A DNA stretch of 64,000 bases from the NCBI RefSeq assembly GCF_003018115.1, contig NZ_CP027457.1; one strand, given 5' to 3'. Shown here piece after piece: positions 4,677 to 42,897 of the stretch. This DNA comes from Escherichia coli. Lineage in GTDB: Bacteria > Pseudomonadota > Gammaproteobacteria > Enterobacterales > Enterobacteriaceae. The position numbers and the translations under genes are program-made. The first letter of the stretch is position 1; the number at the start of each line of letters is the position of its first letter. The notes below the pieces were generated by a model. The model was not told where the DNA came from. It saw only the letters and a program-made list of their open reading frames with translations, and searched no databases.

Positions 4677-5860
4677 AGGGCAAGATTACGAAAGCCCGCT
4701 CCCCGCAAGGACTGACGCCAGATAGTTTCTGTCCATGGCTGCTTTTCGCATCTTACGTCTTAACCCTGCCTTGAATACCTTATCATTCGTCAAAATATTA
4801 ATAGCAATGTGCCGTATCCCTGAAAATAATTCCGCTGCATTTCCTCTTCTTATTCTGCAGTCGTCTTCATTCATTACCACGTCCAGGCGCCAGTGCAGCT
4901 TATTTTCCACGTGCCAGTGATTTCGGTTCGCTGTGGCGAACTTCTCTGCAGTTAAATCAGCAGAGCTGATATAATATCTGACCGTCATTTCGGGTTCTTT
5001 CTTTTGTTCTGCTATTATTGACCGAAAGGAGACTGCCACGCATAATTTCTTCAGCCCTTTCCATTCAAACGTGAAATCAATAAGTTCATCAGGGACATCG
5101 CAAACAATATGAAGACGGATTTCTTCTCTGCCGTGACTCTTTTCACTGATTGCGTAACTGTCATGCTCTGGATTATTTAATTCTTTCAGCGGAAATTTTT
5201 CCTCAAAGGCTTTATTTAGCCGCCCCTGGTTTCCTTTTACCGCGAATAAATAATCACCTCCCTGTTTTTGTATCTTCTCTGCAATATCTTTCTGGCAACC
5301 CATCGCATCAGTTGTGATGATTTTTCCTTTAATATCCAGCATGTTAAGAAGTTCTGGGATAGCTGTAATCTCATTAGATTTCTCATCCGTCCTGATCTGT
5401 CCGATGACCAGACTGTGCATTGTTGAGAACGCACTAATGACATGAATCGCTCCCCTGCGGCGACTCTTGTCATAAGAGTGCCGGAGCGTTTTTCCATCAA
5501 TTGCAATGACGTCTTTATCATCTGAAGAATGGCAGTCACGCATCCAGTTAATAAAGCACTCGTGAAATTTTGCAGGACTGATACAGGATACAACTCTGGC
5601 AATGGTATCGTGAACAGGAATACCATTTTCAAAATCACCATATTGCTTCAAAAAATCGAGATGTGTTTCCCCAAAATCCTCTATATCTTCCCAACCCTCT
5701 GCACCAGAAATGACGGCACAAATAGTCAACAGTAGAATATCTGACAATTTATGTTCTACTTTCCAGGCTTGTCTGTAATCGGGGATAATAGAAATATGTT
5801 CCATCAGTTTTTTAAGTTCCATTTTGTTCTCCTTATTTATGCAAGGAGTATTTGATCATA
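4677..5860 (-). mobile_element. Intact H-repeat (H-rpt) element, ISAs1 family
   Basis: Ends inferred from the repeated terminal sequences shared with the truncated copy (gggcaagattacgaaagcccgc... at the 3' end; ccttatttatgcaaggagtatttgatc at the 5' end); abuts the truncated copy in tandem. Confidence 0.75.
4686..5822 (-). CDS. ISAs1-family transposase (H-repeat-associated protein, YhhI-like), 378 aa
   Basis: 378-aa ORF typical of Rhs-associated H-rpt proteins (conserved DAMGCQ and [14 protein letters not shown] segments). Confidence 0.88.
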
Positions 5861-6290
5861 TATAAGCTATGAAAAATAGTTTTAGGTAATAAGGAATATC
5901 TCAATTATTGAACATTTAGCGCGAATTATTTAGTACAAAAAGTGTACTTCTGATGACCTTTCCCTGCTCCAAAGTCTTCTAAAATCAACAATGTAGACTC
6001 TTAATTATATTTATCAACACAATAATCTATCCTATTACTATCTTGACAAGAGAGAACCGTTTTTTATTTAAATATATGATACACATCATTAAATATATAA
6101 CCATACTTTTTCATAAGGCAATCTAACTTAGCTCTTAAATCACCAAAACCCATCACACCATAACATCTAATAGCCATTGCCACACGTCACCATGGATTTA
6201 TTTCCACCTGCAATTACTTCGTCCTAACTTTAATTTAATCTCAAGAAGCATTAAGATCTCAATAGCGAGCTTAATACTTCTTGAATAATA

Positions 6291-6668
6291 TCACTCCTGA
6301 CCAAAATTTTTCCACACTAATGCATGAGACTTTGATTTGTCACCCAGAAATTTACTTACATCTTGCCAAAGTAAAGAATTGCTATCGGTCGCAGTGACTA
6401 TTGCCTCTATAAGCCCTGTAGCTACAACTGTGGCCAATTCATCATCAAGCGAGACCATACCATCTTCGACATGTTTAAATATTTTTTCTCTTTCAATATC
6501 CCCCATTTCATAAAAATTTTTTACAATCGTTTTTCCAACCTGAGAGAACAACATAACCACCGGTGGCGTTTCTGGATGCCAGTATTCATTAGCTAATGAG
6601 ACTGTCTCAGACAAAACAGTGGAAAATGATGCCATTTTTTCTATATAACTAGCAATATATTGGTTCAT
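6291..6668 (-). CDS. Candidate cognate immunity protein for the Rhs C-terminal toxin (cytoplasmic, 125 aa)
   Basis: Small ORF immediately downstream of rhs; its ATG overlaps the rhs stop (TAATG); no signal peptide; AT-rich like the toxin-encoding tail of rhs. Confidence 0.75.
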   Translation of the reverse strand: MNQYIASYIEKMASFSTVLSETVSLANEYWHPETPPVVMLFSQVGKTIVKNFYEMGDIEREKIFKHVEDGMVSLDDELATVVATGLIEAIVTATDSNSLLWQDVSKFLGDKSKSHALVWKNFGQE

Positions 6669-9600
6669 TACTTGCCTCCCAAAGCATTCTGTAAATCCTG
6701 AAGAACGTTTTCTGCTGCTGCTCGATCCCCTGGAGATGCTGTTGGATTCTTATCCAACCAATCCTGTAAAGCCCTTGTATAATCCTGTGCTTTCAATACA
6801 TGTCCTCTACCACCAACTTTTTCACCTGTGGCCAATTCATAACGAACAGCATCTGCTGTGCTTCCACTTCCTACTTTTGCATTTGGCCGATAAAGATCGT
6901 CTATAATATTTTTCAAATTTGAATCTGTAACGTCGGGTTTTCCCATTTTCTGTCGCAATTCATCTTTATACCGTTCATGCTGCATACGATCCCTTGCGCT
7001 ATTCTCATCTTCTGGTCCCCATCCTCCCGGGCTTCCCGTACTGCCGCCGGCCAGGCAGTTCTTCTCTTCATCCGTCAAATCCTTCCCAACATTCGGCTGA
7101 CTCCCTGACGAATTATCATTCTCATGTGGGCTATCTAAAGGACAACTACTGGTCCAGTAACACATTTCAGCCTGAGAATTTATTAACTGCCCATCGCTCA
7201 GAGCCTTCCCGGCACGCCCATCATTAGCGAGAAGGTCATATCCCATTGGCCCAGCGACCACAGCCATTGCTCCAAGAGCAGGGGCAGCAGACGCCATAGC
7301 CGCCGTGACTGCATCAAAAGTCGCCGCCCCACCCGAAAGTAACGCCCCCCCAAATTCTGTTCCTGTTACTGTTGTGGCAGAACCAAGAACCAGTGTCTCA
7401 CCAGACAACCCAAGAGGATCCCCCCGCTGCACCGGGTTCAGCGGATACGCATACAGGTTCCATCCCCCCTTCAGCCCAATGGGATCCTGGGTGATATAGC
7501 GTCCCTGCAACGGATCGTAGTACCGGTTCCGGTTATAGTACAGCCCCGACTCCTCATCATACTGCTGCCCCGGCAGACGGAGTGACTGTTGAAGGTGCTG
7601 CGCGCTGGTTTCGCCCAGCAGGTTTCCCCACTCGTCATACTCCCCCTGCCACGCCGTTTCCCCTTCCGGGCTGATGAGCGCCAGCGGCAGTCCCCGGTGG
7701 TCGCAGTGGTAAAGATGAAGTTTCCTCTCCGGGATGTATTCCGCCTCCAGCTGTGCGGCCATCTGCTCCGCCGTCAGCCCGCACTGCGCAAGCCATGCCT
7801 CACTCTCCGCACTCACCGCTCCCGCGCGCAGTTCCCGCTCCAGCCTCCCCAGCATCACCGACAGCTCCGCCGGTAGCGTCACACCCGTGTCCTCCTGCAA
7901 CACCTCCGCCAGGCTCCGGTGCCGCGCCTTCGCCTGTTCGCCATTCTCTGTTTCGATTCTCAGGAGCGGCGTGAAGCTCCCCGGCTGGTATACCGTCTGG
8001 ATACGCGTGGTGCCGGTCTGTATCGTCGTCAGCCTGTCACCGTCCCACCCGTACCATGTCACCTCCGGTTTACGCGACAGCGACATCCACCCCGTCAGGT
8101 CACGCTCCCGCCGCCATACCCGTTTTCCCGTCCGGCGGCCCAGCGGGTCATAGAGGTACCGGCTCTCCACCTGTGGTTCGCCGTGCTGTATCCGCGTGTA
8201 GAACACCAGGCGGTGCTGGCTGTCGTAGTGATAGTGGTGGGTGCGCTCGTCGTGCATCCGGATAACCCCTTCCGGGATACGGTCCGTCTTCTCCGCCAGC
8301 CTGCCGTATTCATCGTGGCGGTAGACATAGTGCGCATCCTCCGCGATGCGGTTATCCGGCCACGCCGTGAGCGTGCTGTCCGGGTGCAGTTCCGGGTCCG
8401 GCAGCCGGTTTCCTGCCGGGTCCGTCGCATACGGGATATCAATGTCCAGGTTCGCTGCCGTGGTGTGGACGCCCGTCAGCCTTCCCGTGCCGCTGTAACG
8501 GTACTCCCGGCTCTCCTGCGGGCCGCTGATGCGGATTAGCTGTCCGTTGTCGTTCCACGTATACTCACGGTCAAGCTGCGGAAGGTTCAGGTGCCTGCTC
8601 CGGAGCTGGCCGCTGGTATTCCAGGCGGTGGCAAGTTCATATGCCTCCCCGCCGAAGCTGCGGGCCGTCTCACGGTGCAGCCGGTCCCGCGTGTACTCGA
8701 CCAGCGGCGTTCCGCCCAGCTTCATCCCCGCAAGATAACCGCTGCCATACGTCAGCCACTCCACCGGCGGCAGACCGTCCGGCTCCTGACGGGTCGCCAG
8801 CCCCTGTTCGCTGTACGCATGCCCCGTCTCATGCTCCCACAGCATCTCCCCCGTCTCCGGGTTCTCCACCGTCTGCCGTTCGCCCGTCAGGCGGCCTTTA
8901 TCGTCATAGCCGTAGTGGACCGACACGCGGTGGCCTTCACTGGTATGGCTGAGGGTGGTTAACCACCCGTGCTCATCATACTGCCACTGCTCTGCCGGGT
9001 CGCCGTTCACCGTCCGGTGCGTGATGCGGTCCGACGCATCGTAGTGCCAGAGGGTGATAAGCCCCTCGTCTTCACTCTGCGTGAGTTTTCCGGTCAGGTC
9101 ATAGTGGTAACGTTGCGTCCGGCCGTCAAAACCGCGCTGTTCAGTCAGCCTGTCCACCGGGTCATACCGGAACGTGGACTGGCTGCCGTTCTCGTTGGTC
9201 AGCACGGTGATGCGCCCGGCAGCGTCATACCCCATGCTGCGCGTAAGACCGCCTTCCGTCACACTCACCGGACGCCCGTGTTTATCATATTCGATGGTGC
9301 TGCGTTTACCGTCCGGTGATATCGTTGCTGTCAGGTCGCCTGCGGCGCTGTACTCATAACGGATTTCACGCCCCTGCGCATCCTTCTGACTGACCAGTTG
9401 CCCACGCGGGTTATAACTGCTGTAAGTGCTGATGCCTTCCTCCCGGTGAACGGCGATTTGTTGACCGTACCAGTCATACTCATACCGCGTCGTGTACCCC
9501 GAGCAGTCCGTGAAGGCCCGAAGCTGACCGTACCGGTTTCGCGTTATTCTCCGCGTCACCCCGGTTCCGTCTTCCACCGCGCCGGGCAGGCTACTGCGGG

Positions 9601-11173
9601 GGGAGTCATAAAACCAGCGCGTAATGTTACCGTTGCGCGAGGTCTCTTCTGCCAGTCGGCCCTGACGGTCATATTTCCGGTTGCTGCGTAAACCATCCGG
9701 ATATGTCACTGAAGTCAGTTGCAACTGGCTGTTGTAACCATACCGTACCGTCCTGCCGTCCGGCAGTATCACTGAAGTCAGCTTTCCAGACGCCATATGC
9801 AGCCGGTACTCCGTCCGCCGCCCCGCCGCATCCGTCTGCGCCTTCAGCCTCCCCGCCTCATCATACTCGCTGCGGGTGATGCTCCCGTCCGCATGTTCCT
9901 TCTTCACCACACGCTTCAGGCCACCTTCGCCCTCCGTGTACAGCACCTCCCGCCGGTTCAGGCTGTCCGTGATGGTCACACGGTCCTGCCCGTACTCAAA
10001 GCGGTAGTCCAGCCCCTCCGGGTTGACCTGTTCTGTCACCCGACCGGTATCATCATACCGGTAGCGGCTCTCCGGCCTCCCTGCATAATGGTGCGCCACC
10101 ATCCGCCCGGCGTGCTGCACATCATAAGTAAACCCGCGCACCTGCGTCCCGCTGCGGTCATACACCGCCCGCAGTTCTCCGCTGGCCGTGTACGTGTAGC
10201 GCGCCAGCGGCGCAGTCGGCTGTTCATCCGGGTATGCCGGGTCGTGTGTCAGCCACACCGCCTCCAGCCGGATACCGTTATCGGCACCGTACTCTGTACC
10301 GGCGGGCAGCGTGTCGGGGAAAGCTGAAGAAAAGGAAGAAGAGGAAACAGAACGGGGACTGGCCGGGGAAGATAAGGAAGACTCGCGCTGTTTACGGAAG
10401 GCTTCCGCCCGCTGCGCCTGTGTGGTCAGCGCCAGGTGAAAACGGCGGCCCGCGCCGTCCGTCACCCCCGTCACCGCGCCCGCCACGTCACCCTCCGCCG
10501 CCCTGTGAAAGGCCAGCGTCCGACCAAAGCCATCCACCACGCCCGTCAGCACCCGGTATGCGGGCGGCTCCGGCGGCAGCACCTCGTCCGCCTCCGGCAC
10601 CCGCTCCGGCCAGCTGAGCACCAGCCACTGCCCGGTTGTGCTGACAGCCATCATATAGGTGTGTGGACTCAGACGGACCGCTTCCGGCAGCGCCCGCCAG
10701 AGCCGGGCCAGCGGGTGGCCTTTGTGTTGTTTCAGCACCCCACCCCTTGCCAGCCAGAGTGACTCGCTGCGGCTGTAGCTTATCTCGCCGGGAAACAGCG
10801 GCTCAAAGTGAATGCTCCTGCCGCCGTTGTCGTTGAGTATCAGTTCCCGCTCATGAATCTGTAAGCGGATATCAAAGGGGGCTTTCCAGCCGGGGCCAAA
10901 CACCCCCACCGGCGCGGGCGTCCTGGTCCGGTAACTGCTGTAGGCACGGGAAAGAATGAACGGCAGCGGGCCGGGCAGCGCAAGGTCCGTCTCGCCCGGC
11001 AGCACCTTCGCACCCAGTAGCGGGTTCACCGGGTTAGCATAGGTAATCCCTCCCGGACACACCGAGCAGGCCACTCCCGTCGGCGCACCTATCAGCACCC
11101 CCGCTGAACCCTGCACAATATCCAGTCCCTTGCGGGTCATATCACCCTGCCGCGCCGCCGGTTTTCCGCCCAT
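6668..11173 (-). CDS. rhs: PAAR-domain Rhs effector with variable C-terminal toxin domain (1501 aa)
   Basis: N-terminus [13 protein letters not shown]...[10 protein letters not shown] (PAAR-like); long YD/RHS repeat core; core-end motif [13 protein letters not shown] ~276 aa before the C-terminus; divergent, lower-GC C-terminal ~110 aa. Confidence 0.93.
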
Positions 11174-11248: not shown

Positions 11249-13390
11249 TCAAAATTGCCGCATATCCGGCATTCCGGGGGGTAAATCTTTCGGCACAGGC
11301 GCATCCGGTACAGGTTGTGTGGCACCACAGTTCCAGTTAATCACCGGCGCATCACCGTTCACATCCGACTCCCCTTCCAGATGAATGTGCGTACCATTAA
11401 GAAATATGCTTCCGTCCTTCGTCAGCACCAGCCTTGCCTTACCACAGCAGAGTTCAAGATGCTCACCGGCAGAATAAACTGCTGTTTGTCCGGTGTTTTC
11501 CTTCATCGTCTTGCCCACCGAGAAGGTGACGTTATTCCCTACATTGACGCTGTAGCCCATTCCCACCATCAGTGATTTATGCAGCCCTACCTGTGAGGAC
11601 TGCAACAACGCCACCGAGGTATTCATAATGCCGCCTACCGTCGTCTGATACGCCACACCCACCGTCAGCGCACGAATGATCCCCACCTTTTCAACCTGGT
11701 TTGATCCCACTTTGATAATCTGGTTACTGCCCACCGTTTCCACCTGGTTGACACCAACCGTCTGTATCTGATTAACGCCAATGTTCTGGATCTGGTTATT
11801 GGTAACGGTGATCGCCTGGTTGTTACCTATTTTTTCGGCATGGTTGTTTATCACATCAGTGGTGCGGTTATTCAGCACCTCGGTGTTCATGTTCTTCTGC
11901 GCGTGGATGTAGACCTGTTCTTTCCCTGTCGCATCGTCAAACTTCAGTTCATTAAACCCGCTGCCCTTATAGGTTTTCGAACGAATGGTCATCTGCGTCT
12001 TTGTTCCCGGCAGGCTGCCGGGTGTGCGGTTTTCCTGGTGGTAGGTGCGCCCCATAATGATCGGCTGGTCCGGATCGCCGTTGAGGAAGTCCACAATCAC
12101 CTCCTGACCCACACGCGGTATCGCCAGGTTACCAAACCCGGTGCCTGCCCACGCCTGTGCCACACGGATCCAGCATGAACTGTCCTGGTTTGACGGGTTA
12201 TAGCGGTCCCAGTTAAATTTCACCCGCACGCGACCATGTTCGTCGCAGAAGATTTCCTCGCCTGCCGGTCCCGTCACGACGGCGCTCTGCGGGCCATCCA
12301 CCAGCGGTTTCAGCAACGGCTGTGGTCGCCATGTTCTGTCTGCCGGTATTACCGCAAAATGGTTATCCAGCGTGGTGCCTGAACCCCTGCGTCCCGGTAC
12401 CGCCTGCGGCTGTTCGCCGTGAAGATCGCTCGCCACCACCTGCCATTCCCGGTTCAGGTTCGCCTGCGGATGCCCCGTCAGCACAATTCGCCGTCCCGGC
12501 CATATCTCCGGCGAACGGCTTGTTCCGCGCGCCACTTCTGCGTTGTTTCGCCAGCCATCCATCTGCCAGCGGGCAAAGTTCTGCCCGTGGGCACCCTTGA
12601 AACGTCCGGGGTAGTCATACACTTCATACTGTGTGCGCTGGTAATCCTGGTACTGGCCTTCCTGATCAAAACGCCCTGCCCAGCCGGGTCGTTTAAAGGT
12701 GTAGTCTTTGGTCACCACGGAAGAAGGGCGGATTTGTGCGCTGTAGCGAAACTGGCTGATGCAGAGGGTGCTTACCTCGGTACGGGTGTTCGGATTCCAG
12801 GGGATCTCAAAGGACTCCGGCAGATAACGCACGGTATCGCACAGGACCAGGCTCTGGTCGGTACTTTTTTGCGCGTGCTCCTCATAAAAGAAGATGCCTT
12901 CCTCCGCCGCCATCCGGCACAGGAAATCGTAATCAGTCTCACCGTACTGGACACAAAACTCACGGGAAGGATGCGGTTCACTGAACAGCGGACTCCACTC
13001 GGTCACCCCGTTTTCCTGCAATATCGTGCCGAGGATGCTTTTGATGTCCTCGTTCTGGAAGATACGGAAGTTCTGGCGCAGCCCTGTGCGCCACAGCGGC
13101 GGGCATACCTTCATGCTGTACAGCTTCTGGTTTTTGTCGTTCTCCCCCAGTTCAAACCAGGTCACCACACCTTTCACCCGGCGCTGTACGTCATCGCCCT
13201 GCCATATCGTCAGGTAGGCCATTTTGTCGAGGATCTGCTGGAATTCAAGGGAGAGAAACTGCTGGCTGACCAGAGAGAGAGCGAGGGAAAAAAGCGAAGA
13301 GAGTGACTGGTTCAGATGAAAGGAGACCACCGCAAAAGCATCCGGTGGCAGGCCGTCCACTTCCAGCGTGAAACGTAATCCGGTTGACAT
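11249..13390 (-). CDS. vgrG: T6SS spike protein VgrG (713 aa)
   Basis: Typical VgrG N-terminus (MSTGLRFTLEVDGLPPDAFAVVSF), gp27/gp5-like core and repetitive beta-helix region (NNQ/VGxNQ repeats). Confidence 0.93.
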   Translation of the reverse strand: MSTGLRFTLEVDGLPPDAFAVVSFHLNQSLSSLFSLALSLVSQQFLSLEFQQILDKMAYLTIWQGDDVQRRVKGVVTWFELGENDKNQKLYSMKVCPPLWRTGLRQNFRIFQNEDIKSILGTILQENGVTEWSPLFSEPHPSREFCVQYGETDYDFLCRMAAEEGIFFYEEHAQKSTDQSLVLCDTVRYLPESFEIPWNPNTRTEVSTLCISQFRYSAQIRPSSVVTKDYTFKRPGWAGRFDQEGQYQDYQRTQYEVYDYPGRFKGAHGQNFARWQMDGWRNNAEVARGTSRSPEIWPGRRIVLTGHPQANLNREWQVVASDLHGEQPQAVPGRRGSGTTLDNHFAVIPADRTWRPQPLLKPLVDGPQSAVVTGPAGEEIFCDEHGRVRVKFNWDRYNPSNQDSSCWIRVAQAWAGTGFGNLAIPRVGQEVIVDFLNGDPDQPIIMGRTYHQENRTPGSLPGTKTQMTIRSKTYKGSGFNELKFDDATGKEQVYIHAQKNMNTEVLNNRTTDVINNHAEKIGNNQAITVTNNQIQNIGVNQIQTVGVNQVETVGSNQIIKVGSNQVEKVGIIRALTVGVAYQTTVGGIMNTSVALLQSSQVGLHKSLMVGMGYSVNVGNNVTFSVGKTMKENTGQTAVYSAGEHLELCCGKARLVLTKDGSIFLNGTHIHLEGESDVNGDAPVINWNCGATQPVPDAPVPKDLPPGMPDMRQF

Positions 13391-13552
13391 AGCAACCTCC
13401 GGGGTTAAGGAAAAACAGACAGTTCGCTGTTAAAGCGGCTGTGACAGTACAGTGTTACGCTTGCGTTCAGGCACGCTACCGCCGAAGTTTCCGGCAGCCG
13501 CCATCTCCCGTGAACGTAACCCCTTACTGACAACCTTTCTTTCTACGGCGTA

Positions 13553-13590
13553 ATACAAAAACAGCATCCGGCCTGATAGCCGGATGCTGT
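13553..13590 (-). terminator. Intrinsic terminator or attenuator between hcp and vgrG
   Basis: Perfect 12-bp stem ACAGCATCCGGC/GCCGGATGCTGT with 6-nt loop, followed on the minus strand by TTTTGT; 10 nt after the hcp stop. Confidence 0.7.
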
Positions 13591-13599
13591 TGGCTTAAC

Positions 13600-14118
13600 T
13601 TATGCTTCCAGCGGTGCGCGCCAGTCGTCGGCACCGGAGGTGCCAGATTTGACGTGTTCCCATTCAATTTTGCGGTAGGCCAGTGAAACTTCGAGCAACT
13701 GGGTGAACTCGCGTTTCGCCGGGTCCTGGCAATGCGGCATATGCAGTTTCATATCGACAATCGTCGAATCAGTCAGGCGGGTAGTGAAATAATGCTCCTG
13801 TTTGCCTTCCACAGAGGTACGCCACCAGTGAAGTTCAGTGGTTGGCAGCATTTCGCCGGAGGCCAGTGCGTTGTACATCAGCGGAACCGCTTTGTTCAGC
13901 GCCACGGTAAAAATGAAAGGCTTGTGAGCACGCTGACCCGCAGGCTGACCGGACTGAGGATCGGTCGGGACAGTAACGTTATGCAGGAATTCCTGCACCA
14001 GCATCTCGTCTTCGTGCCCCTGCACATAGATGTTGCCGACAGAATCAGCGGTAAATGCACCTGCAGTAATATTTCCCTGGGTCTGACCAGTGATGGAGAT
14101 ATAACACGGTGTTGGCAT
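13600..14118 (-). CDS. hcp: T6SS inner-tube protein Hcp (172 aa)
   Basis: 172-aa ORF with an Hcp-like N-terminus (MPTPCYISITGQTQGNITAGAF...); size and position upstream of vgrG. Confidence 0.93.
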   Translation of the reverse strand: MPTPCYISITGQTQGNITAGAFTADSVGNIYVQGHEDEMLVQEFLHNVTVPTDPQSGQPAGQRAHKPFIFTVALNKAVPLMYNALASGEMLPTTELHWWRTSVEGKQEHYFTTRLTDSTIVDMKLHMPHCQDPAKREFTQLLEVSLAYRKIEWEHVKSGTSGADDWRAPLEA

Positions 14119-14815
14119 TTGTAAACTCCTTGTTAACGTGGTTAATTACTACTTACAATGACCTGCCGTTAATCCCAGACAGGCAGATGCAGCTCACTTC
14201 ACGGAACCGCATCATTTTTCAGTATTTTTTACATACAAACCGAGCTAGAATTTACGGTTGTCGTAAAAACTATTTTTAAAATCATTAAATCTCTTATTCA
14301 GCAATAACTTAATAATATATATCTGGATAACCATACCCAACTGTTCAAAGTCCGTATTGCCTCCATAAAATGGCCAAAGCTGAATCATGAATAAATATTG
14401 TATTTATCCTTTCTGAATTATCATTTTGATAATTTTTGAGATATTCCTTAAAAATACCCACTTAATCAATCACAAAACAAATATATAAACAAGCAATCAT
14501 TAGATTAGCTTATGTTTAATAAAATTATTATACAATTCAATAAGATGAATAAAAAACCCTATATTTAAATTATTGCCATAATACACCTGACGCGAATTAC
14601 ACAGGTTCACACAATCTATTTAACGCTTGCAGAATACCCCTCTTTACGATCGATAAAAAGTCCTTTTCTTATTTATTTTGAAGCGTAAAATGCGGGGTGA
14701 TGAAGGAGTGGTGATTTTATTTTCACCGCCATTAGGGCGGCATTGCCGATATTTTTTTGCGGTACAAATATGCCGTGTTCATGGCCTGTACGAGATAACA
14801 TGACGGATCACTTTT
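14119..14815. promoter_or_regulatory. AT-rich divergent control region between hcp and tssB
   Basis: ~700 bp without ORFs, visibly AT-rich, between divergent operons; contains a Fur-box-like inverted GATAAT pair (~14414..14436) and GATC sites at 14648 and 14806. Confidence 0.5.
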
Positions 14816-15316
14816 ATGAGCAAAAAATTTGAAGGCAGCGTCGCGCCTCGCGAGCGTATTAATATATCGTATGTCCCAAAAACAGATGGCCAGACGGCTG
14901 AAGTGGAACTTCCGCTTAACATGCTCGTTGTCGGCGATACCGGAAATACGCAGGAAACATCCCCACTGGATGAACGTCAGGCAGTTTCCGTTAACAAGCA
15001 CAATTTCGGTGCAGTGATGGCTGAAGCAGCCATTGGCCTCAATTTTACCGTCCCTGCCACACTGAAGGGAAGCACAACGGACGATGAGCTGAATGTGGCG
15101 CTGAATATCAAGTCACTGGATGATTTTTCACCAGATAGCGTGGCCCGGCAGGTTCCGGAAGTGAATAAATTGCTGGAACTGCGTGAAGCACTGACTGCAC
15201 TGAAGGGGCCGATGGGTAACCTTCCGGCATTCCGTACCCAGCTCCAGGCATTGCTGGAAAATGAAGAGTCCCGCGAGCAGTTGCTCAAAGAAATCGGCCA
15301 GGTGAGCAATAAATAA
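14816..15316 (+). CDS. tssB: T6SS contractile sheath small subunit TssB (VipA)
   Basis: 166-aa ORF, first gene of the structural operon; TssB-like size and sequence. Confidence 0.9.
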   Translation: MSKKFEGSVAPRERINISYVPKTDGQTAEVELPLNMLVVGDTGNTQETSPLDERQAVSVNKHNFGAVMAEAAIGLNFTVPATLKGSTTDDELNVALNIKSLDDFSPDSVARQVPEVNKLLELREALTALKGPMGNLPAFRTQLQALLENEESREQLLKEIGQVSNK

Positions 15317-24355: not shown

Positions 24356-27127
24356 ATGATCCAGATTGATCTTCCCACGCTGGTAAAACGGCTGAACCTG
24401 TTCTCCCGCCAGGCGCTGGAGATGGCCGCCTCTGAATGTATGAGTCAGCAGGCTGCGGAAATTACCGTCAGCCATGTGCTTATTCAGATGCTCGCCATGC
24501 CACGCAGTGACCTGCGGGTTATTACCCGCCAGGGCGATATTGGCATGGAAGAGTTGCGCCAGGCGTTGACGGTAGAGAACTACACAACCGCCCGTTCTGC
24601 GGACAGCTACCCGGCGTTTTCCCCGATGCTGGTTGAGTGGCTTAAAGAGGGCTGGCTGCTGGCGTCGGCTGAGATGCAGCACAGCGAACTGCGCGGCGGC
24701 GTGTTGCTGCTGGCCTTGCTGCATTCGCCGCTGCGTTATATACCGCCTGCTGCCGCCCGGCTGTTGACCGGCATTAACCGTGACCGTCTGCAACAGGACT
24801 TTGTGCAGTGGACACAGGAGTCGGCGGAATCAGTCGTGCCGGATGCAGACGGTAAAGGCGCAGGCACACTGACGGACGGCTCTGACACCCTGCTTGCCCG
24901 CTACGCCAAAAACATGACCGCAGACGCCCGTAACGGCAGGCTAGACCCGGTACTGTGCCGCGACCACGAAATCGACCTGATGATCGACATTCTCTGCCGC
25001 CGCCGTAAAAACAACCCGGTGGTGGTGGGCGAAGCAGGCGTGGGTAAAAGCGCGCTGATTGAAGGGCTGGCGCTGCGCATCGTGGCAGGCCAGGTGCCGG
25101 ACAAACTGAAAAACACCGATATCATGACCCTTGACCTGGGCGCATTGCAGGCCGGGGCATCGGTGAAGGGTGAGTTTGAAAAACGCTTCAAGGGGCTGAT
25201 GGCGGAGGTCATTTCCTCTCCGGTGCCGGTCATTCTGTTTATCGACGAAGCGCATACCCTGATTGGCGCGGGCAACCAGCAGGGCGGGCTGGATATCTCC
25301 AACCTGCTGAAACCGGCGCTGGCGCGTGGCGAACTGAAAACCATCGCCGCCACCACCTGGAGCGAGTACAAAAAATACTTCGAGAAAGACGCCGCCCTGT
25401 CGCGCCGCTTCCAGTTAGTGAAGGTCAGCGAACCCAACGCTGCCGAAGCCACCATTATTCTGCGTGGTCTGTCGGCGGTCTATGAACGGTCTCACGGCGT
25501 GCTGATTGACGATGATGCCTTGCAGGCCGCAGCAACGCTGAGCGAACGTTATCTCTCCGGGCGTCAGTTACCGGACAAAGCGATTGATGTGCTGGATACC
25601 GCCTGCGCCCGTGTGGCCATCAACCTGTCGTCGCCGCCGAAGCAAATCTCGGCGCTGACCACTCTGAGCCACCAGCAGGAGGCGGAAATTCGCCAGCTTG
25701 AGCGCGAGCTTCGCATCGGACTGCGTACCGACACATCACGGATGACCGAGGTGCTGGTGCAGTATGATGAAACGCTGACGGCGCTGGATGAACTGGAAGC
25801 GGCCTGGCACCAGCAGCAGACGCTGGTCCGGGAGATTATCGCGCTGCGCCAGCAGTTACTGGGCGTGGCAGAGGACGATGCGGCGCCGTTGCCGGACGCA
25901 GATACCGTGGAGGATACGCAGCCAGAGTCAGAGTCAGAGTCAGAACAGGATAATACCGGTGCCGTACCGGCTGATGAGGCCGACAGAGAACAGCCGGAAG
26001 AGACCGCTGAAACAGTTTCCCCGGTACAGCGGCTGGCCCAGCTCACTGCCGAACTGGACGCCCTGCATAACGACCGGTTGCTGGTCTCCCCGCACGTCGA
26101 TAAAAAACAGATTGCGGCGGTGATTGCCGAATGGACCGGCGTGCCGCTCAACCGCCTGTCGCAGAATGAAATGTCGGTCATCACCGACCTGCCGAAATGG
26201 CTGGGCGACACCATCAAAGGCCAGGACCTGGCGATTGCCAGCCTGCATAAGTATCTACTGACCGCACGCGCCGACCTGCGTCGTCCGGGACGCCCGCTCG
26301 GTGCGTTCCTGCTGGCTGGCCCCAGCGGTGTGGGTAAAACCGAAACCGTCCTGCAACTGGCAGAGCTGCTCTACGGCGGTCGCCAGTACCTGACCACCAT
26401 CAATATGTCCGAATTCCAGGAGAAACACACCGTCTCGCGGCTGATTGGTTCGCCTCCGGGCTACGTTGGCTACGGTGAAGGCGGCGTACTGACCGAAGCG
26501 ATTCGCCAGAAACCCTACTCGGTAGTACTGCTCGATGAAGTGGAAAAAGCGCACCCGGATGTGCTCAACCTGTTCTACCAGGCGTTCGATAAGGGCGAAA
26601 TGGCAGACGGTGAAGGCCGCCTGATTGACTGCAAAAATATCGTCTTCTTCCTGACGTCCAACCTCGGCTACCAGGTAATAGTCGAGCATGCCGATGACCC
26701 GGAAACCATGCAGGAAGTACTGTATCCGGTGCTGGCCGACTTCTTCAAACCTGCCCTGCTGGCGCGTATGGAAGTGGTGCCGTATCTGCCGCTGTCGAAA
26801 GAGACGCTCGCCACCATTATCGCCGGGAAACTGGCCCGTCTGGATAACGTGCTGCGCAGTCGCTTTGGTGCAGAAGTGGCCATTGAACCGGAAGTGACGG
26901 ACGAAATCATGAGCCGCGTCACCCGCGCGGAAAACGGCGCGAGGATGCTGGAATCGGTCATCGATGGCGACATGCTACCGCCGCTCTCGCTGCAGCTGTT
27001 GCAGAAAATGGCGGCTAACACGGCGATTGCCCGGATTCGGTTGTCGGCAGTGGACGGCGCATTTACGGCAGACGTGGAAGATGCTCAGAACGACGAGTCC
27101 GTCACAAAGGATGAAACGGTTTTATGA
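24356..27127 (+). CDS. clpV: T6SS AAA+ ATPase ClpV (TssH, VasG)
   Basis: ORF 24242..27127; start taken at MIQIDLPTLVKRLN (24356); two Walker A motifs (GEAGVGKSA, GPSGVGKTE). Confidence 0.93.
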   Translation: MIQIDLPTLVKRLNLFSRQALEMAASECMSQQAAEITVSHVLIQMLAMPRSDLRVITRQGDIGMEELRQALTVENYTTARSADSYPAFSPMLVEWLKEGWLLASAEMQHSELRGGVLLLALLHSPLRYIPPAAARLLTGINRDRLQQDFVQWTQESAESVVPDADGKGAGTLTDGSDTLLARYAKNMTADARNGRLDPVLCRDHEIDLMIDILCRRRKNNPVVVGEAGVGKSALIEGLALRIVAGQVPDKLKNTDIMTLDLGALQAGASVKGEFEKRFKGLMAEVISSPVPVILFIDEAHTLIGAGNQQGGLDISNLLKPALARGELKTIAATTWSEYKKYFEKDAALSRRFQLVKVSEPNAAEATIILRGLSAVYERSHGVLIDDDALQAAATLSERYLSGRQLPDKAIDVLDTACARVAINLSSPPKQISALTTLSHQQEAEIRQLERELRIGLRTDTSRMTEVLVQYDETLTALDELEAAWHQQQTLVREIIALRQQLLGVAEDDAAPLPDADTVEDTQPESESESEQDNTGAVPADEADREQPEETAETVSPVQRLAQLTAELDALHNDRLLVSPHVDKKQIAAVIAEWTGVPLNRLSQNEMSVITDLPKWLGDTIKGQDLAIASLHKYLLTARADLRRPGRPLGAFLLAGPSGVGKTETVLQLAELLYGGRQYLTTINMSEFQEKHTVSRLIGSPPGYVGYGEGGVLTEAIRQKPYSVVLLDEVEKAHPDVLNLFYQAFDKGEMADGEGRLIDCKNIVFFLTSNLGYQVIVEHADDPETMQEVLYPVLADFFKPALLARMEVVPYLPLSKETLATIIAGKLARLDNVLRSRFGAEVAIEPEVTDEIMSRVTRAENGARMLESVIDGDMLPPLSLQLLQKMAANTAIARIRLSAVDGAFTADVEDAQNDESVTKDETVL

Positions 27128-42126: not shown

Positions 42127-42897
42127 TTATGCCGCTTTATGTGCATCTACCATGATGATATCACTGGTGAAAGAGCCATCATTCTGCAAGGCAAAATACG
42201 TTCTCACCTCTGTCGATGCGCTCTGTTGGTAAATGCGAATAGCGTCTACTAACGCTTCTGGCGTACGCATTCTCGCGACCCATGAAGAAAATTCCAGCGG
42301 TAACTTATCTGTAATTAAATTATCAACTATCAGATTGGCTTCATTGATTAACGTCAACCACTCACCGCTGGCGTAGTTTCGTACGTGAGAGGTATCGCGT
42401 AATGCTTCTACCGTCTGTAACCAGATGTCGCGCACTGGGTGACCCGGAGACATTACGTCCATCACAATCAGCCTACCGCCAGGTTTCAATATCCGGTTCA
42501 CTTCTCGCAGTGCTGCACCAACATCATGCCAGTGATGGGCAGAATAACGGCTGATAACAATATCAAATGCGTTATCGGCAAATGGCAGACTTTCGGCATA
42601 TCCCTGGCGGGTGGTGATATTTTTCAGTTGCCGGGCTTCGGCAGCTTGTGCCACGACATCCAGCATATGGGCAGATAAGTCATACGCCACCACCGTGCTC
42701 ACGTTTTGCGCAGCGACAAAGCTGGCATGCCCTGCTCCGCAGCCCATATCAAGTACACTTGCATCAGGATAATCAGCCAGACACACTGCCAGGCGCTGTA
42801 AATCTCGTCCGGATGCATGTACGGTACTGGTCAGATATTCGCTGGCTTGAGAGCTAAACTGCTTTTCTACGTGGTCATGGTGGGATTGTGTTGTCAT
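42127..42897 (-). CDS. yafE: SAM-dependent methyltransferase YafE
   Basis: 256-aa ORF with methyltransferase motif LDMGCGAGH; position as in K-12. Confidence 0.85.
   Translation of the reverse strand: MTTQSHHDHVEKQFSSQASEYLTSTVHASGRDLQRLAVCLADYPDASVLDMGCGAGHASFVAAQNVSTVVAYDLSAHMLDVVAQAAEARQLKNITTRQGYAESLPFADNAFDIVISRYSAHHWHDVGAALREVNRILKPGGRLIVMDVMSPGHPVRDIWLQTVEALRDTSHVRNYASGEWLTLINEANLIVDNLITDKLPLEFSSWVARMRTPEALVDAIRIYQQSASTEVRTYFALQNDGSFTSDIIMVDAHKAA

What the first reader, a model, noticed from the sequence alone, without database searches (positions are those of the whole stretch)
13553..13590. Strong hairpin with U-tract between hcp and vgrG suggests attenuation within the effector operon
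A perfect 12-bp GC-rich stem followed by TTTTGT lies 10 nt after the hcp stop and ~160 nt before vgrG, on the coding strand. It would let hcp be transcribed in excess over vgrG-rhs by partial termination, matching the stoichiometric need for more tube than spike subunits.
Basis: seen in the sequence. Interest (0 to 1): 0.3.

Follow-up and report, generated by a model that had tools for sequence, protein, structure and literature searches.

The report
Known terminator hairpin after T6SS hcp
The strong RNA hairpin with a U-tail just after the tube-protein gene hcp in this E. coli type VI secretion cluster is a real, conserved transcription terminator and mRNA stabiliser, but this exact sequence was characterised experimentally in a 2026 paper, so the finding is confirmed rather than new.

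Summary
The hairpin exists as described, on the minus strand at 13560-13591. It has 13 Watson-Crick pairs plus one G-U pair and a 4-nt loop, followed by UUUGUAUU, and it starts 8 nt after the hcp stop. It folds far better than chance (z -5.6). In 21 related enterobacterial loci the stem is kept through compensatory changes (8 pairs, 0 of 500 shuffles reach this). Of 80 hcp loci, 57 carry a hairpin plus U-tail right after hcp, against about 1.6 in shuffles.

The hcp-vgrG spacer differs by 1 base in 233 from EHEC EDL933 "h3R". Vazquez-Lopez et al. (2026) showed there that deleting this hairpin increases read-through, cuts hcp3 mRNA to 6% and doubles a downstream reporter. So the terminator is already known.

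One addition: about 70 nt downstream lies a perfect ops site, GGCGGTAGCGTG (13472-13483). It sits inside the most conserved part of the spacer (identity 0.86, against 0.50 at hcp four-fold sites). ops recruits the antiterminator RfaH, which is known to act on other E. coli T6SS loci, but the h3R paper does not mention it. "hcp, then hairpin, then ops" recurs in three unrelated spacer families.

The parts
13600..14118 (-). hcp (T6SS tube protein, 172 aa); stop codon TAA at 13600-13602
   Evidence: ORF list. Pfam PF05638, E 5e-31. RefSeq calls it an Hcp family effector, WP_001142958.1.
13560..13591 (-). Terminator hairpin. 5' arm 13578-13591, loop ATCA 13574-13577, 3' arm 13560-13573. Equals region I of EHEC 'h3R'.
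   Evidence: dG -25.2 alone, -27.8 with flanks, z -5.6. Covariation. Identical in EDL933. Experiments in PMC13141884.
13552..13561 (-). U-rich tail UUUUUGUAUU; the first two U also close the stem
   Evidence: The tract TTTTTGT has pairwise identity 0.84 across 20 loci, against 0.50 at hcp four-fold sites.
13533..13551 (-). Variable spacer between terminator and conserved leader
   Evidence: Pairwise identity 0.46, at the neutral level. No sigma-70-like site found on this strand.
13515..13532 (-). Conserved block 1, TGTCAGTAAGGGGTTACG; function unknown
   Evidence: Identity 0.78. Forms an imperfect inverted repeat with 13442-13460, but covariation is not significant.
13466..13510 (-). Conserved 45-nt core of the spacer, CGGGAGATGGCGGCTGCCGGAAACTTCGGCGGTAGCGTGCCTGAA. 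Lies in 'region II' of h3R.
   Evidence: Identity 0.86, against 0.50 neutral. Non-coding, because frame-breaking indels occur in other genera. Single copy in 2762 of 5426 E. coli genomes.
13472..13483 (-). ops element GGCGGTAGCGTG, a perfect 12/12 match to the consensus, on the non-template strand of vgrG
   Evidence: the only perfect copy in 64 kb. Consensus and function. GCGGTAG is found 19 times in sense and once in antisense in 55 hcp-vgrG spacers, against 0.8 expected.
13442..13460 (-). Conserved block 3, GCGTAACACTGTACTGTCA; the one base that differs from EDL933 lies here
   Evidence: Identity 0.70. Absent from several lineages that keep the core. A2 alignment.
13391..13441 (-). vgrG 5' UTR proximal part ('region III'): weak hairpin, TTTTTCC tract, SD GGAGG at 13396-13400
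   Evidence: Identity 0.40. The fold is not better than shuffles, z -0.2.
11249..13390 (-). vgrG (spike protein, 713 aa)
   Evidence: Phage_GPD E 1e-73, Gp5_C, Phage_base_V.
6668..11173 (-). rhs effector (1501 aa). A 125-aa ORF follows at 6291-6668 (probable immunity gene). With vgrG this makes a unit of about 7 kb downstream of ops.
   Evidence: The toxin and immunity end is AT-rich, GC 0.37-0.39.

Best explanation
The hairpin is the Rho-independent terminator of hcp. RNA polymerase coming from the hcp promoter transcribes the 14-pair stem and the U run. Most complexes release there, giving an abundant monocistronic hcp mRNA. The 3' hairpin then also shields that mRNA from 3' exonucleases. 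These steps are shown by published deletion experiments on the identical sequence, and are supported here by covariation and by the conserved U tract.

The following steps are inferred. Polymerases that escape the terminator, and/or any that start in the roughly 70 nt behind it, meet a perfect ops site. There they pause and load RfaH. RfaH makes them resistant to Rho and H-NS across the roughly 7-kb vgrG-rhs-immunity unit.

The net effect is much more tube (Hcp) message than spike/effector message, with expression of the effector arm gated a second time.
For: Anatomy:
- Canonical stem-loop plus U tract, 8 nt after the stop codon on the coding strand.
- No competing fold is predicted.

Conservation of structure rather than sequence:
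- 94% of cells are paired.
- 8 pairs show double changes, against 3.7 +/- 1.1 in shuffles; 0 of 500 shuffles reach the observed value.
- Slid controls give at most 55% paired.
- The U tract is conserved at 0.84, against 0.50 for neutral sites.

Generality:
- 57 of 80 hcp loci have a hairpin (dG <= -12) plus U tail within 80 nt of the stop, against 1.6 in shuffles.
- The same homologous hairpin ends hcp where no vgrG follows (L026, L027).

Experiments (PMC13141884, on an intergenic region differing by 1 base in 233):
- The terminator was predicted at +8 with 32 nt and 14 pairs.
- No hcp3-vgrG3 junction RT-PCR product was obtained in wild type.
- Deleting the 31-bp region I raised junction RNA, cut hcp3 mRNA to 6%, halved Hcp3/GFP and doubled downstream mCherry.
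- vgrG3 mRNA rose less than hcp3 mRNA after an upstream promoter swap.

The ops half:
- Perfect consensus in the required orientation.
- It lies in the most conserved part of the spacer.
- It is strongly enriched and strand-biased in hcp-vgrG spacers.
- RfaH/ops dependence has been demonstrated for other E. coli T6SS loci.
- EAEC Sci-1 has the same order: hcp, hairpin plus U run, ops.
Against: - Termination efficiency is unmeasured. The doubling of a downstream reporter on deletion suggests either a leaky terminator or further blocks downstream.
- The published RT-PCR argues against a shared hcp-vgrG transcript in wild type, although the cluster is nearly silent there.
- A comparable stem-loop after Yersinia hcp4 stabilised mRNA without terminating.
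- No experiment links RfaH to this particular locus.
- ops lies downstream of the hairpin, so RfaH cannot modulate the hairpin itself.
- Other spacer families, and vgrG genes with no hcp upstream, clearly use their own promoters in front of ops. The same may be true here, even though no promoter-like site was found.
Confidence: 0.75

Rival explanations
1. Full stop plus separate operon. The hairpin terminates essentially all hcp transcription, and vgrG-rhs is transcribed only from its own promoter inside the spacer. There is then no attenuation in the reader's sense.
For: - No hcp3-vgrG3 junction product was obtained in wild-type EHEC, while both genes gave amplicons.
- In other lineages a promoter-like TGATAGTGCA motif sits between the terminator and ops. 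It matches the leader of the RfaH- and sigma-70-bound CFT073 orphan PAAR-vgrG locus.
- The core plus ops also serves vgrG genes that have no hcp upstream.
Against: - No sigma-70-like site lies on this strand between 13391 and 13560.
- The stretch just behind the hairpin is unconserved, identity 0.46.
- The paper's predicted promoter lies downstream of ops, where it could not use ops.
- vgrG3 mRNA rose when the promoter upstream of hcp3 was replaced and induced.
- In EAEC Sci-1, essential genes lie behind the equivalent hairpin, with only the upstream promoter known.
Confidence: 0.4
2. Decay barrier only. The stem-loop does not terminate. It marks or protects the 3' end of an hcp segment cut out of a longer transcript by endonucleases, as proposed for Yersinia pseudotuberculosis hcp4.
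For: - Deleting region I reduced hcp3 mRNA to 6%.
- In the Yersinia precedent, mutating the stem lowered only hcp4 RNA.
- Several short-spacer relatives have the hairpin without a U tract (L017, L020, L021, L023).
Against: - Here the U tract is present and conserved, 0.84.
- Deleting the hairpin increased junction RNA and downstream reporter output, which a pure decay barrier does not predict.
Confidence: 0.15
3. A palindromic DNA site (operator or other protein-binding site) or a repeated or mobile palindrome (REP-like), with no role as RNA.
For: It is a near-perfect inverted repeat in an H-NS-silenced island.
Against: - Single copy in the window.
- Arm sequences vary between genera, but in a compensatory way, and the loop is free to vary at 0.47. 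This is the signature of a structure, not of a sequence-specific site.
- G-U pairs are tolerated on this strand.
- Unrelated hairpins occupy the same position in distant genera.
Confidence: 0.03

Closest known systems
Region I of 'h3R', the hcp3-vgrG3 intergenic regulatory sequence of EHEC O157:H7 EDL933 (Vazquez-Lopez et al., Microbiol Spectr 2026, PMC13141884)
   Same: It is the same element. The hairpin is 100% identical, and the 233-nt stretch spanning the 209-nt spacer differs at one base. It is described there as a terminator at +8, 32 nt long, with 14 pairs, that also stabilises hcp3 mRNA.
   Different: The window is not EDL933: it carries a different rhs and has one SNP in the spacer. 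The paper offers no comparative or covariation evidence. It predicts a promoter and Fis/MalT/NarP/MelR sites in region II, and it never mentions ops or RfaH.
GC-rich stem-loop downstream of hcp4 in Yersinia pseudotuberculosis T6SS4 (PLoS Pathog 2025, PMC12503267)
   Same: A hairpin directly after hcp raises hcp mRNA above that of the downstream T6SS genes. The authors give the same stoichiometry rationale.
   Different: In Yersinia, mutation of the stem did not change downstream transcripts, so it was interpreted as a 3' decay barrier after RNase cleavage and not as a terminator. The sequence is unrelated, and the downstream gene is tssE4, not vgrG.
ops1 in the hcp-clpV spacer of EAEC Sci-1 T6SS (bioRxiv 10.1101/2025.02.08.637259), and RfaH-bound T6SS leaders in UPEC CFT073 (mBio 2022, PMC9765446)
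   Same: A consensus ops lies in the intergenic region right after hcp. In strain 042 I find a hairpin (10 pairs, z -3.9) plus AUUUUUAUUUUUU 7 nt after the hcp stop, and ops about 85 nt later, followed by the same CCTGA. That is the same order of parts as here.
   Different: It is a different T6SS subtype with a different Hcp. The downstream genes are structural (clpV and others). RfaH dependence is shown there and not here. Neither paper mentions the hairpin.
ops / JUMPStart leader of RfaH-dependent operons (for example waaQ/RirA, hlyCABD)
   Same: The 12-nt GGCGGTAGCGTG is identical, lies on the non-template strand, and sits in an untranslated leader before a long horizontally acquired operon.
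   Different: Upstream of ops, the 39-bp JUMPStart of waaQ and the T6SS core share little beyond an ops-like half repeat. Here the leader is preceded by another gene's terminator rather than by a mapped promoter.
Intercistronic hairpins that set differential mRNA levels within operons (puf, pap, malEFG REP). The puf and pap precedents are cited in the reference list of PMC12503267; the rest is established knowledge.
   Same: A stable stem-loop after a highly needed cistron gives it more message than the distal genes.
   Different: Those act mainly as decay barriers. This one also has a conserved U tract and measurable termination.

Membership tests
Rho-independent (intrinsic) terminator | Stable G+C-containing stem-loop in the transcript | tested here: met
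   14 pairs, 8 of them G-C, 4-nt loop, dG -25.2 kcal/mol, z -5.6
Rho-independent (intrinsic) terminator | U-rich tract immediately 3' of the stem | tested here: met
   UUUUUGUAUU, with the first two U inside the stem. The tract is conserved at 0.84, against 0.50 for neutral sites.
Rho-independent (intrinsic) terminator | Located just downstream of a stop codon on the coding strand | tested here: met
   8 nt after the hcp TAA, on the same strand
Rho-independent (intrinsic) terminator | Structure maintained in evolution (compensatory changes) | tested here: met
   8 pairs with double changes; 0 of 500 shuffles reach the observed values
Rho-independent (intrinsic) terminator | RNA 3' ends or transcript release at the U tract in vivo or in vitro | not testable with these tools
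   Only indirect published evidence: deletion raises junction RNA and downstream reporter output. No 3'-end mapping was found, and the Term-seq supplements of PMC7547250 are not held.
Regulated transcription attenuator (leader with alternative antiterminator fold) | A competing structure or leader peptide that can prevent the terminator hairpin | tested here: not met
   The hairpin is kept in both the MFE and the centroid fold when 90 nt upstream are included. It follows a full-length gene, not a leader.
EHEC h3R region I | Same sequence at the same locus (between hcp3 and vgrG3 of the aspV/yafV T6SS island) | tested here: met
   232 of 233 positions identical, hairpin identical. Same gene neighbourhood.
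REP-like or mobile palindromic repeat | Many copies per genome | tested here: not met
   One copy in the 64-kb window at up to 3 mismatches
ops element (RfaH recruitment site) | Match to GGCGGTAGCGTG | tested here: met
   12/12 at 13472-13483. Consensus as quoted.
ops element (RfaH recruitment site) | On the non-template strand of the operon it serves, in an untranslated leader and not in a coding region | tested here: met
   Same strand as vgrG, 81 nt before its ATG, and intergenic. The requirement is stated.
ops element (RfaH recruitment site) | Conserved and over-represented at this position | tested here: met
   GGTAGC is invariant in A3. 19 sense against 1 antisense GCGGTAG in 55 spacers, with 0.8 expected.
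ops element (RfaH recruitment site) | RfaH binding, and RfaH-dependent expression of the downstream genes | not testable with these tools
   Shown only for other T6SS loci. The EAEC preprint says the EDL933 cluster 'carries ops elements' without giving a location.
JUMPStart (39-bp element) | Similarity to the 39-bp consensus upstream of ops | tested here: inconclusive
   Aligned with the K-12 waaQ leader, only ops and scattered positions agree.
Structured cis-regulatory RNA (for the conserved core) | Covariation or unusual stability | tested here: not met
   90.6% paired against 89.9% in shuffles. Spacer fold z -0.6. No Rfam hit.

The most novel reading that the evidence does not exclude
The hcp hairpin may be the first half of a conserved two-step gate: 'terminate, then license'. 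Most polymerases stop at the hairpin. The few that pass, or that start just behind it, must load RfaH at the perfect ops site about 70 nt downstream to complete the roughly 7-kb vgrG-rhs unit.

On this reading, the 'inhibitory region II' of the 2026 h3R study is this ops-containing leader. RfaH would then be the overlooked factor behind the failure to obtain VgrG3 and Rhs in EHEC.

The order hcp, then hairpin, then ops recurs in three unrelated spacer families: the Escherichia/Citrobacter type, the Dickeya/Siccibacter/Aeromonas type, and EAEC Sci-1. Neither the h3R paper nor the RfaH-T6SS papers describe the two parts together.
Probability: 0.5. Interest if true: 0.5.

Novelty: already known. 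Interest (0 to 1): 0.3.

Why it matters
T6SS firing needs hundreds of Hcp copies per spike, and Rhs toxins are costly. How cells set these ratios, and how they keep effector arms silent, is an active question.

For the hairpin itself nothing new is gained beyond independent, comparative confirmation of a published element. It shows that a terminator-like hairpin after hcp is the rule across gamma-proteobacteria.

The practical value lies next door. The conserved ops site gives a concrete, cheap hypothesis for why EHEC (and E. coli HS) VgrG3/Rhs could not be expressed after promoter swapping or hns deletion. Such polymerases may need RfaH. Multicopy reporters may also titrate it; this is a guess and is untested.

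Tried and rejected
- **Conserved core as a structured RNA.** RNAalifold proposed helices, but the pair counts equal the shuffles and the spacer is no more stable than shuffles (z -0.6). Block 3 of the putative long helix is missing in several lineages. Rejected.
- **Core as a small protein.** This concerns the RefSeq 45-aa ORF / EDL933_0238 and an internal 24-codon ATG frame. L008 lacks the ATG. L011 has a 2-nt deletion and an early stop. L014 and L009 shift frame while the nucleotide blocks stay conserved. Rejected.
- **tRNA-like or known RNA family.** ARAGORN found nothing there, and Rfam found no hit at E <= 1.
- **Promoter in the spacer.** The consensus scan finds no sigma-70-like site on the minus strand between vgrG and the hairpin. 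Inspection by eye for sigma-54, sigma-E and sigma-32 spacing did not fit; this is inference, not a tool result.
- **Anti-Shine-Dalgarno pairing of the TTTTTCC tract.** Only 3 pairs are predicted, z -0.2. Not supported.
- **Do strong U tracts go with a downstream ops?** By my count, 13 of 19 ops-positive and 16 of 36 ops-negative hcp-vgrG loci have a tail score >= 3. This is a weak, phylogenetically confounded trend, and I make no claim from it.
- **Direct 3'-end or TSS data for EHEC.** The Term-seq/dRNA-seq paper has no supplements held.
- **Antisense excess of GCGGTAG in the loci.** This turned out to be a conserved hcp codon string (AYRK) and is irrelevant.

Full report
**What is there**

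The window carries an E. coli type VI secretion island next to yafV/aspV. On the minus strand lie three genes:
- hcp (13600-14118)
- vgrG (11249-13390)
- an rhs effector (6668-11173)

All three were confirmed against Pfam. tssB and tssC run divergently on the plus strand.

Eight nucleotides after the hcp TAA, the minus strand reads AACAGCATCCGGCT-ATCA-GGCCGGATGCTGTT, followed by TTTGTATTAC. This makes 13 Watson-Crick pairs plus a terminal U-G pair, with a 4-nt loop. It is followed by a U run whose first two residues close the stem.

**Is it more than chance?**

- The 66-nt stretch folds at -27.8 kcal/mol, against -13.5 +/- 2.6 for 200 dinucleotide shuffles. That is z -5.6, and no shuffle folds as well.
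- It is the best terminator-like site in an 11-kb scan.
- It occurs once in the window.
- It survives in both the MFE and the centroid fold when 90 nt of hcp are added upstream. No competing antiterminator fold is therefore predicted.
- Nothing in Rfam matches.

**Comparative evidence**

A protein-anchored scan of one genome per species returned 80 hcp loci encoding Hcp at 81-100% identity.

In the close enterobacterial relatives a homologous hairpin sits 6-20 nt after the stop. These relatives are Escherichia, Citrobacter, Yokenella, Pseudocitrobacter, Buttiauxella, Atlantibacter, Lelliottia, Superficieibacter, Phytobacter and Trabulsiella. Its arms differ between genera in a compensatory way.

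On the 21-sequence alignment:
- 94% of cells pair.
- 8 of 14 pairs show changes on both sides, against 3.7 +/- 1.1 in shuffles.
- No shuffle out of 500 reaches the observed values.
- Sliding the partners drops pairing to 32-55%.

Pairwise identity across the region:

| Region | Pairwise identity |
|---|---|
| hairpin arms | 0.76-0.81 |
| U tract | 0.84 |
| hairpin loop | 0.47 |
| adjoining spacer | 0.46 |
| hcp four-fold degenerate sites | 0.50 |

So both the stem and the U tract are under selection.

In more distant genera (Dickeya, Pectobacterium, Photobacterium, Aeromonas and others), unrelated hairpins with U tails occupy the same position. Overall 57 of 80 loci have a hairpin (dG <= -12) plus U tail within 80 nt of the hcp stop, against about 1.6 in dinucleotide shuffles. 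These loci are phylogenetically related, so the count is descriptive.

The same homologous hairpin also ends hcp where no vgrG follows (L026, L027). A few relatives with a 70-83-nt hcp-vgrG spacer keep a hairpin but lack a good U tract (L017, L020, L021, L023).

**It is already published**

A full-text search found Vazquez-Lopez et al., Microbiol Spectr, April 2026 (PMC13141884). They named the hcp3-vgrG3 spacer of EHEC EDL933 "h3R". The window's spacer is identical to EDL933 at 232 of 233 aligned positions, and the hairpin is identical.

What they report:
- A predicted terminator "at position +8 ... forming a 32-base loop", with 14 pairs.
- No hcp3-vgrG3 junction RT-PCR product in wild type.
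- After deleting the 31-bp region I: more junction RNA, hcp3 mRNA down to 6%, and Hcp3 halved. With reporters, GFP was halved and downstream mCherry doubled.
- After replacing the upstream bidirectional promoter, both hcp3 and vgrG3 RNA rose on induction, vgrG3 less so.

A related idea, a protective stem-loop after hcp4 giving excess tube-protein mRNA, was published for Yersinia pseudotuberculosis in 2025. There the stem did not terminate.

The finding is therefore real and functional, but known.

**Attenuation or two operons?**

The authors conclude that there are separate operons with a promoter in region II. Their own induction data imply that some polymerases pass the hairpin.

I find no sigma-70-like site on this strand between the hairpin and vgrG, and the sequence just behind the hairpin is unconserved.

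Against that, other lineages appear to have a promoter between the terminator and the downstream leader. The leader also serves vgrG genes that have no hcp upstream.

I regard leaky read-through and an unrecognised promoter as roughly equally likely, and the two are not exclusive. Nothing suggests a regulated attenuator.

**What the surroundings add**

The best-conserved part of the spacer is not the hairpin. It is a 45-nt core (13466-13510) with identity 0.86.

- It is not coding. The annotated 45-aa ORF (EDL933_0238) starts inside the hairpin arm, and its frame is broken by indels in other genera while the nucleotide blocks persist.
- It shows no significant RNA covariation or excess stability.
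- It contains GGCGGTAGCGTG at 13472-13483. This is a perfect copy of the ops consensus, on the non-template strand for vgrG, and the only perfect copy in the window.

ops is the pause and loading site for the antiterminator RfaH. It must lie on the non-template strand in an untranslated leader.

Distribution of ops in related loci:
- GCGGTAG lies 116-134 nt after the hcp stop in 18 of the 20 related loci that carry the core.
- Across 55 hcp-vgrG spacers (10.7 kb) it occurs 19 times in sense and once in antisense, against 0.8 expected.
- The hits include a second, unrelated spacer family (Dickeya, Siccibacter, Celerinatantimonas, Aeromonas, one Enterobacter). Its order is terminator hairpin, then GTGCGGTAGC(T/C)ATGG, then vgrG.
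- A metagenome pattern scan added about 27 further distinct variants. All keep the core, although the search pattern forces part of this.

RfaH control of T6SS is itself known:
- RfaH ChIP signals at ops-bearing T6SS leaders in UPEC CFT073 lacking H-NS/StpA.
- A functional consensus ops between hcp and clpV in EAEC Sci-1. The authors remark that the EDL933 cluster carries ops, but give no location in the text I read.

The h3R paper never mentions RfaH, ops or NusG. The EAEC preprint never mentions a hairpin.

Reading the EAEC 042 sequence, I find 7 nt after the hcp stop a 10-pair hairpin (z -3.9) followed by AUUUUUAUUUUUU. About 85 nt later comes GGGCGGTAGCGTGCCTGA. The order hcp, then terminator-like hairpin, then ops thus recurs in three unrelated spacer families.

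The published delta-I-delta-II deletion (170 bp of 209) removes ops together with everything else. Its "inhibitory region II" may therefore reflect an ops pause without enough RfaH. That is inference.

**Verdict**

Terminator: yes. Also an mRNA stabiliser. Leaky read-through into vgrG: plausible but unproven.
- Novelty: already known.
- The modest added value is the covariation and comparative support, plus the recognition that the terminator is followed by a perfect, deeply conserved ops site. This suggests an RfaH-dependent second gate on the vgrG-rhs arm and can be tested directly.

Noticed in passing
window 13472-13483 (-), within core 13466-13510: A perfect ops (RfaH-loading) site lies inside the most conserved non-coding block of the hcp-vgrG spacer. 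The 2026 h3R paper, which treats this stretch as a predicted promoter with transcription-factor sites, does not mention it.
   Followed up: yes
window 13430-13567 (-): Some RefSeq records annotate a 45-aa 'hypothetical protein' here (WP_001297813.1; EDL933_0238). It starts inside the hairpin's 3' arm, and its frame is broken by indels or a lost ATG in other genera. It is probably not a gene.
   Followed up: yes
window 13515-13532 and 13442-13460 (-): Two conserved blocks (identity 0.78 and 0.70) form an imperfect 18-nt inverted repeat around the core. Covariation is not significant, and the 3' block is absent in Phytobacter-, Salmonella- and Lelliottia-type copies. Function unknown.
   Followed up: partly
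L207:18173-18340 (E. coli 042, Sci-1 hcp-clpV spacer): A 10-pair hairpin plus a long U run lies 7 nt after hcp, and the published ops1 lies about 85 nt downstream. This hairpin is not mentioned in the ops1 preprint. Essential structural genes lie behind it.
   Followed up: partly
L035, L058, L059, L039, L044, L047, L080, L062, L081 (hcp-vgrG spacers); L209:715-775 (CFT073 orphan PAAR-vgrG leader): This is a second, unrelated spacer family with the order terminator hairpin, a TGATAGTGCAC-like motif (a possible extended -10), then GTGCGGTAGC(T/C)ATGG. The same motif-plus-ops arrangement precedes the orphan PAAR-vgrG island of CFT073, which I take to be the RfaH-bound c1882 locus.
   Followed up: partly
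L179 and L131 (metagenome contigs), about 80 nt upstream of vgrG: The core with ops also occurs in the leader of vgrG genes that have no hcp upstream and are divergent from a tssF-like gene. The core is therefore a vgrG/effector-operon leader, not an hcp 3' element. In L016, L019, L028, L185 and L200 it precedes a non-vgrG gene after hcp.
   Followed up: partly
L163:5297-5960 (metagenome contig): Here hcp is inverted relative to vgrG, and its start codon abuts the spacer exactly at the end of the U tract, so the hairpin is missing from this junction. This is either a real inversion or a misassembly.
   Followed up: no
L084:3230-3640 (Salmonella Senftenberg NCTC10384 'plasmid 2'): A decayed copy is present: a truncated hcp 3' end, an intact hairpin and U tract, the core with ops, and then a truncated vgrG start. 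It sits next to T6SS immunity genes and PAAR fragments.
   Followed up: no
L208:12165-12275 (-) (K-12 waaQ leader / RirA) versus window 13515-13532: The first 20 nt of the waaQ transcript (GTCAAAGTAAGTGCGTTATC) resemble block 1 (TGTCAGTAAGGGGTTACG). The distance to ops is similar (46 against 48 nt). A GAAAGAAA string precedes both, and it also precedes the corresponding stretch of the EAEC Sci-1 spacer. Significance was not tested.
   Followed up: no
window 26971-26982 (-), 8101-8112 (-), 42470-42479 (-): There are three ops-like strings in the window. GGCGGTAGCATG lies on the minus strand, in a stretch where the annotated tss genes of related genomes run on the plus strand. GGCGGGAGCGTG lies inside rhs, and GGCGGTAGGCTG lies near 42.47 kb. 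No perfect ops lies on the plus strand, so the tssB structural operon appears to lack one.
   Followed up: no
window 14119-14815: The divergent hcp/tssB promoter region is AT-rich (GC 0.38 over 14001-15000), as is the rhs toxin/immunity end (GC 0.37-0.39 over 5001-7000). This is typical of H-NS-bound foreign DNA. The only sigma-70-like site on the minus strand is at 14424-14397.
   Followed up: no
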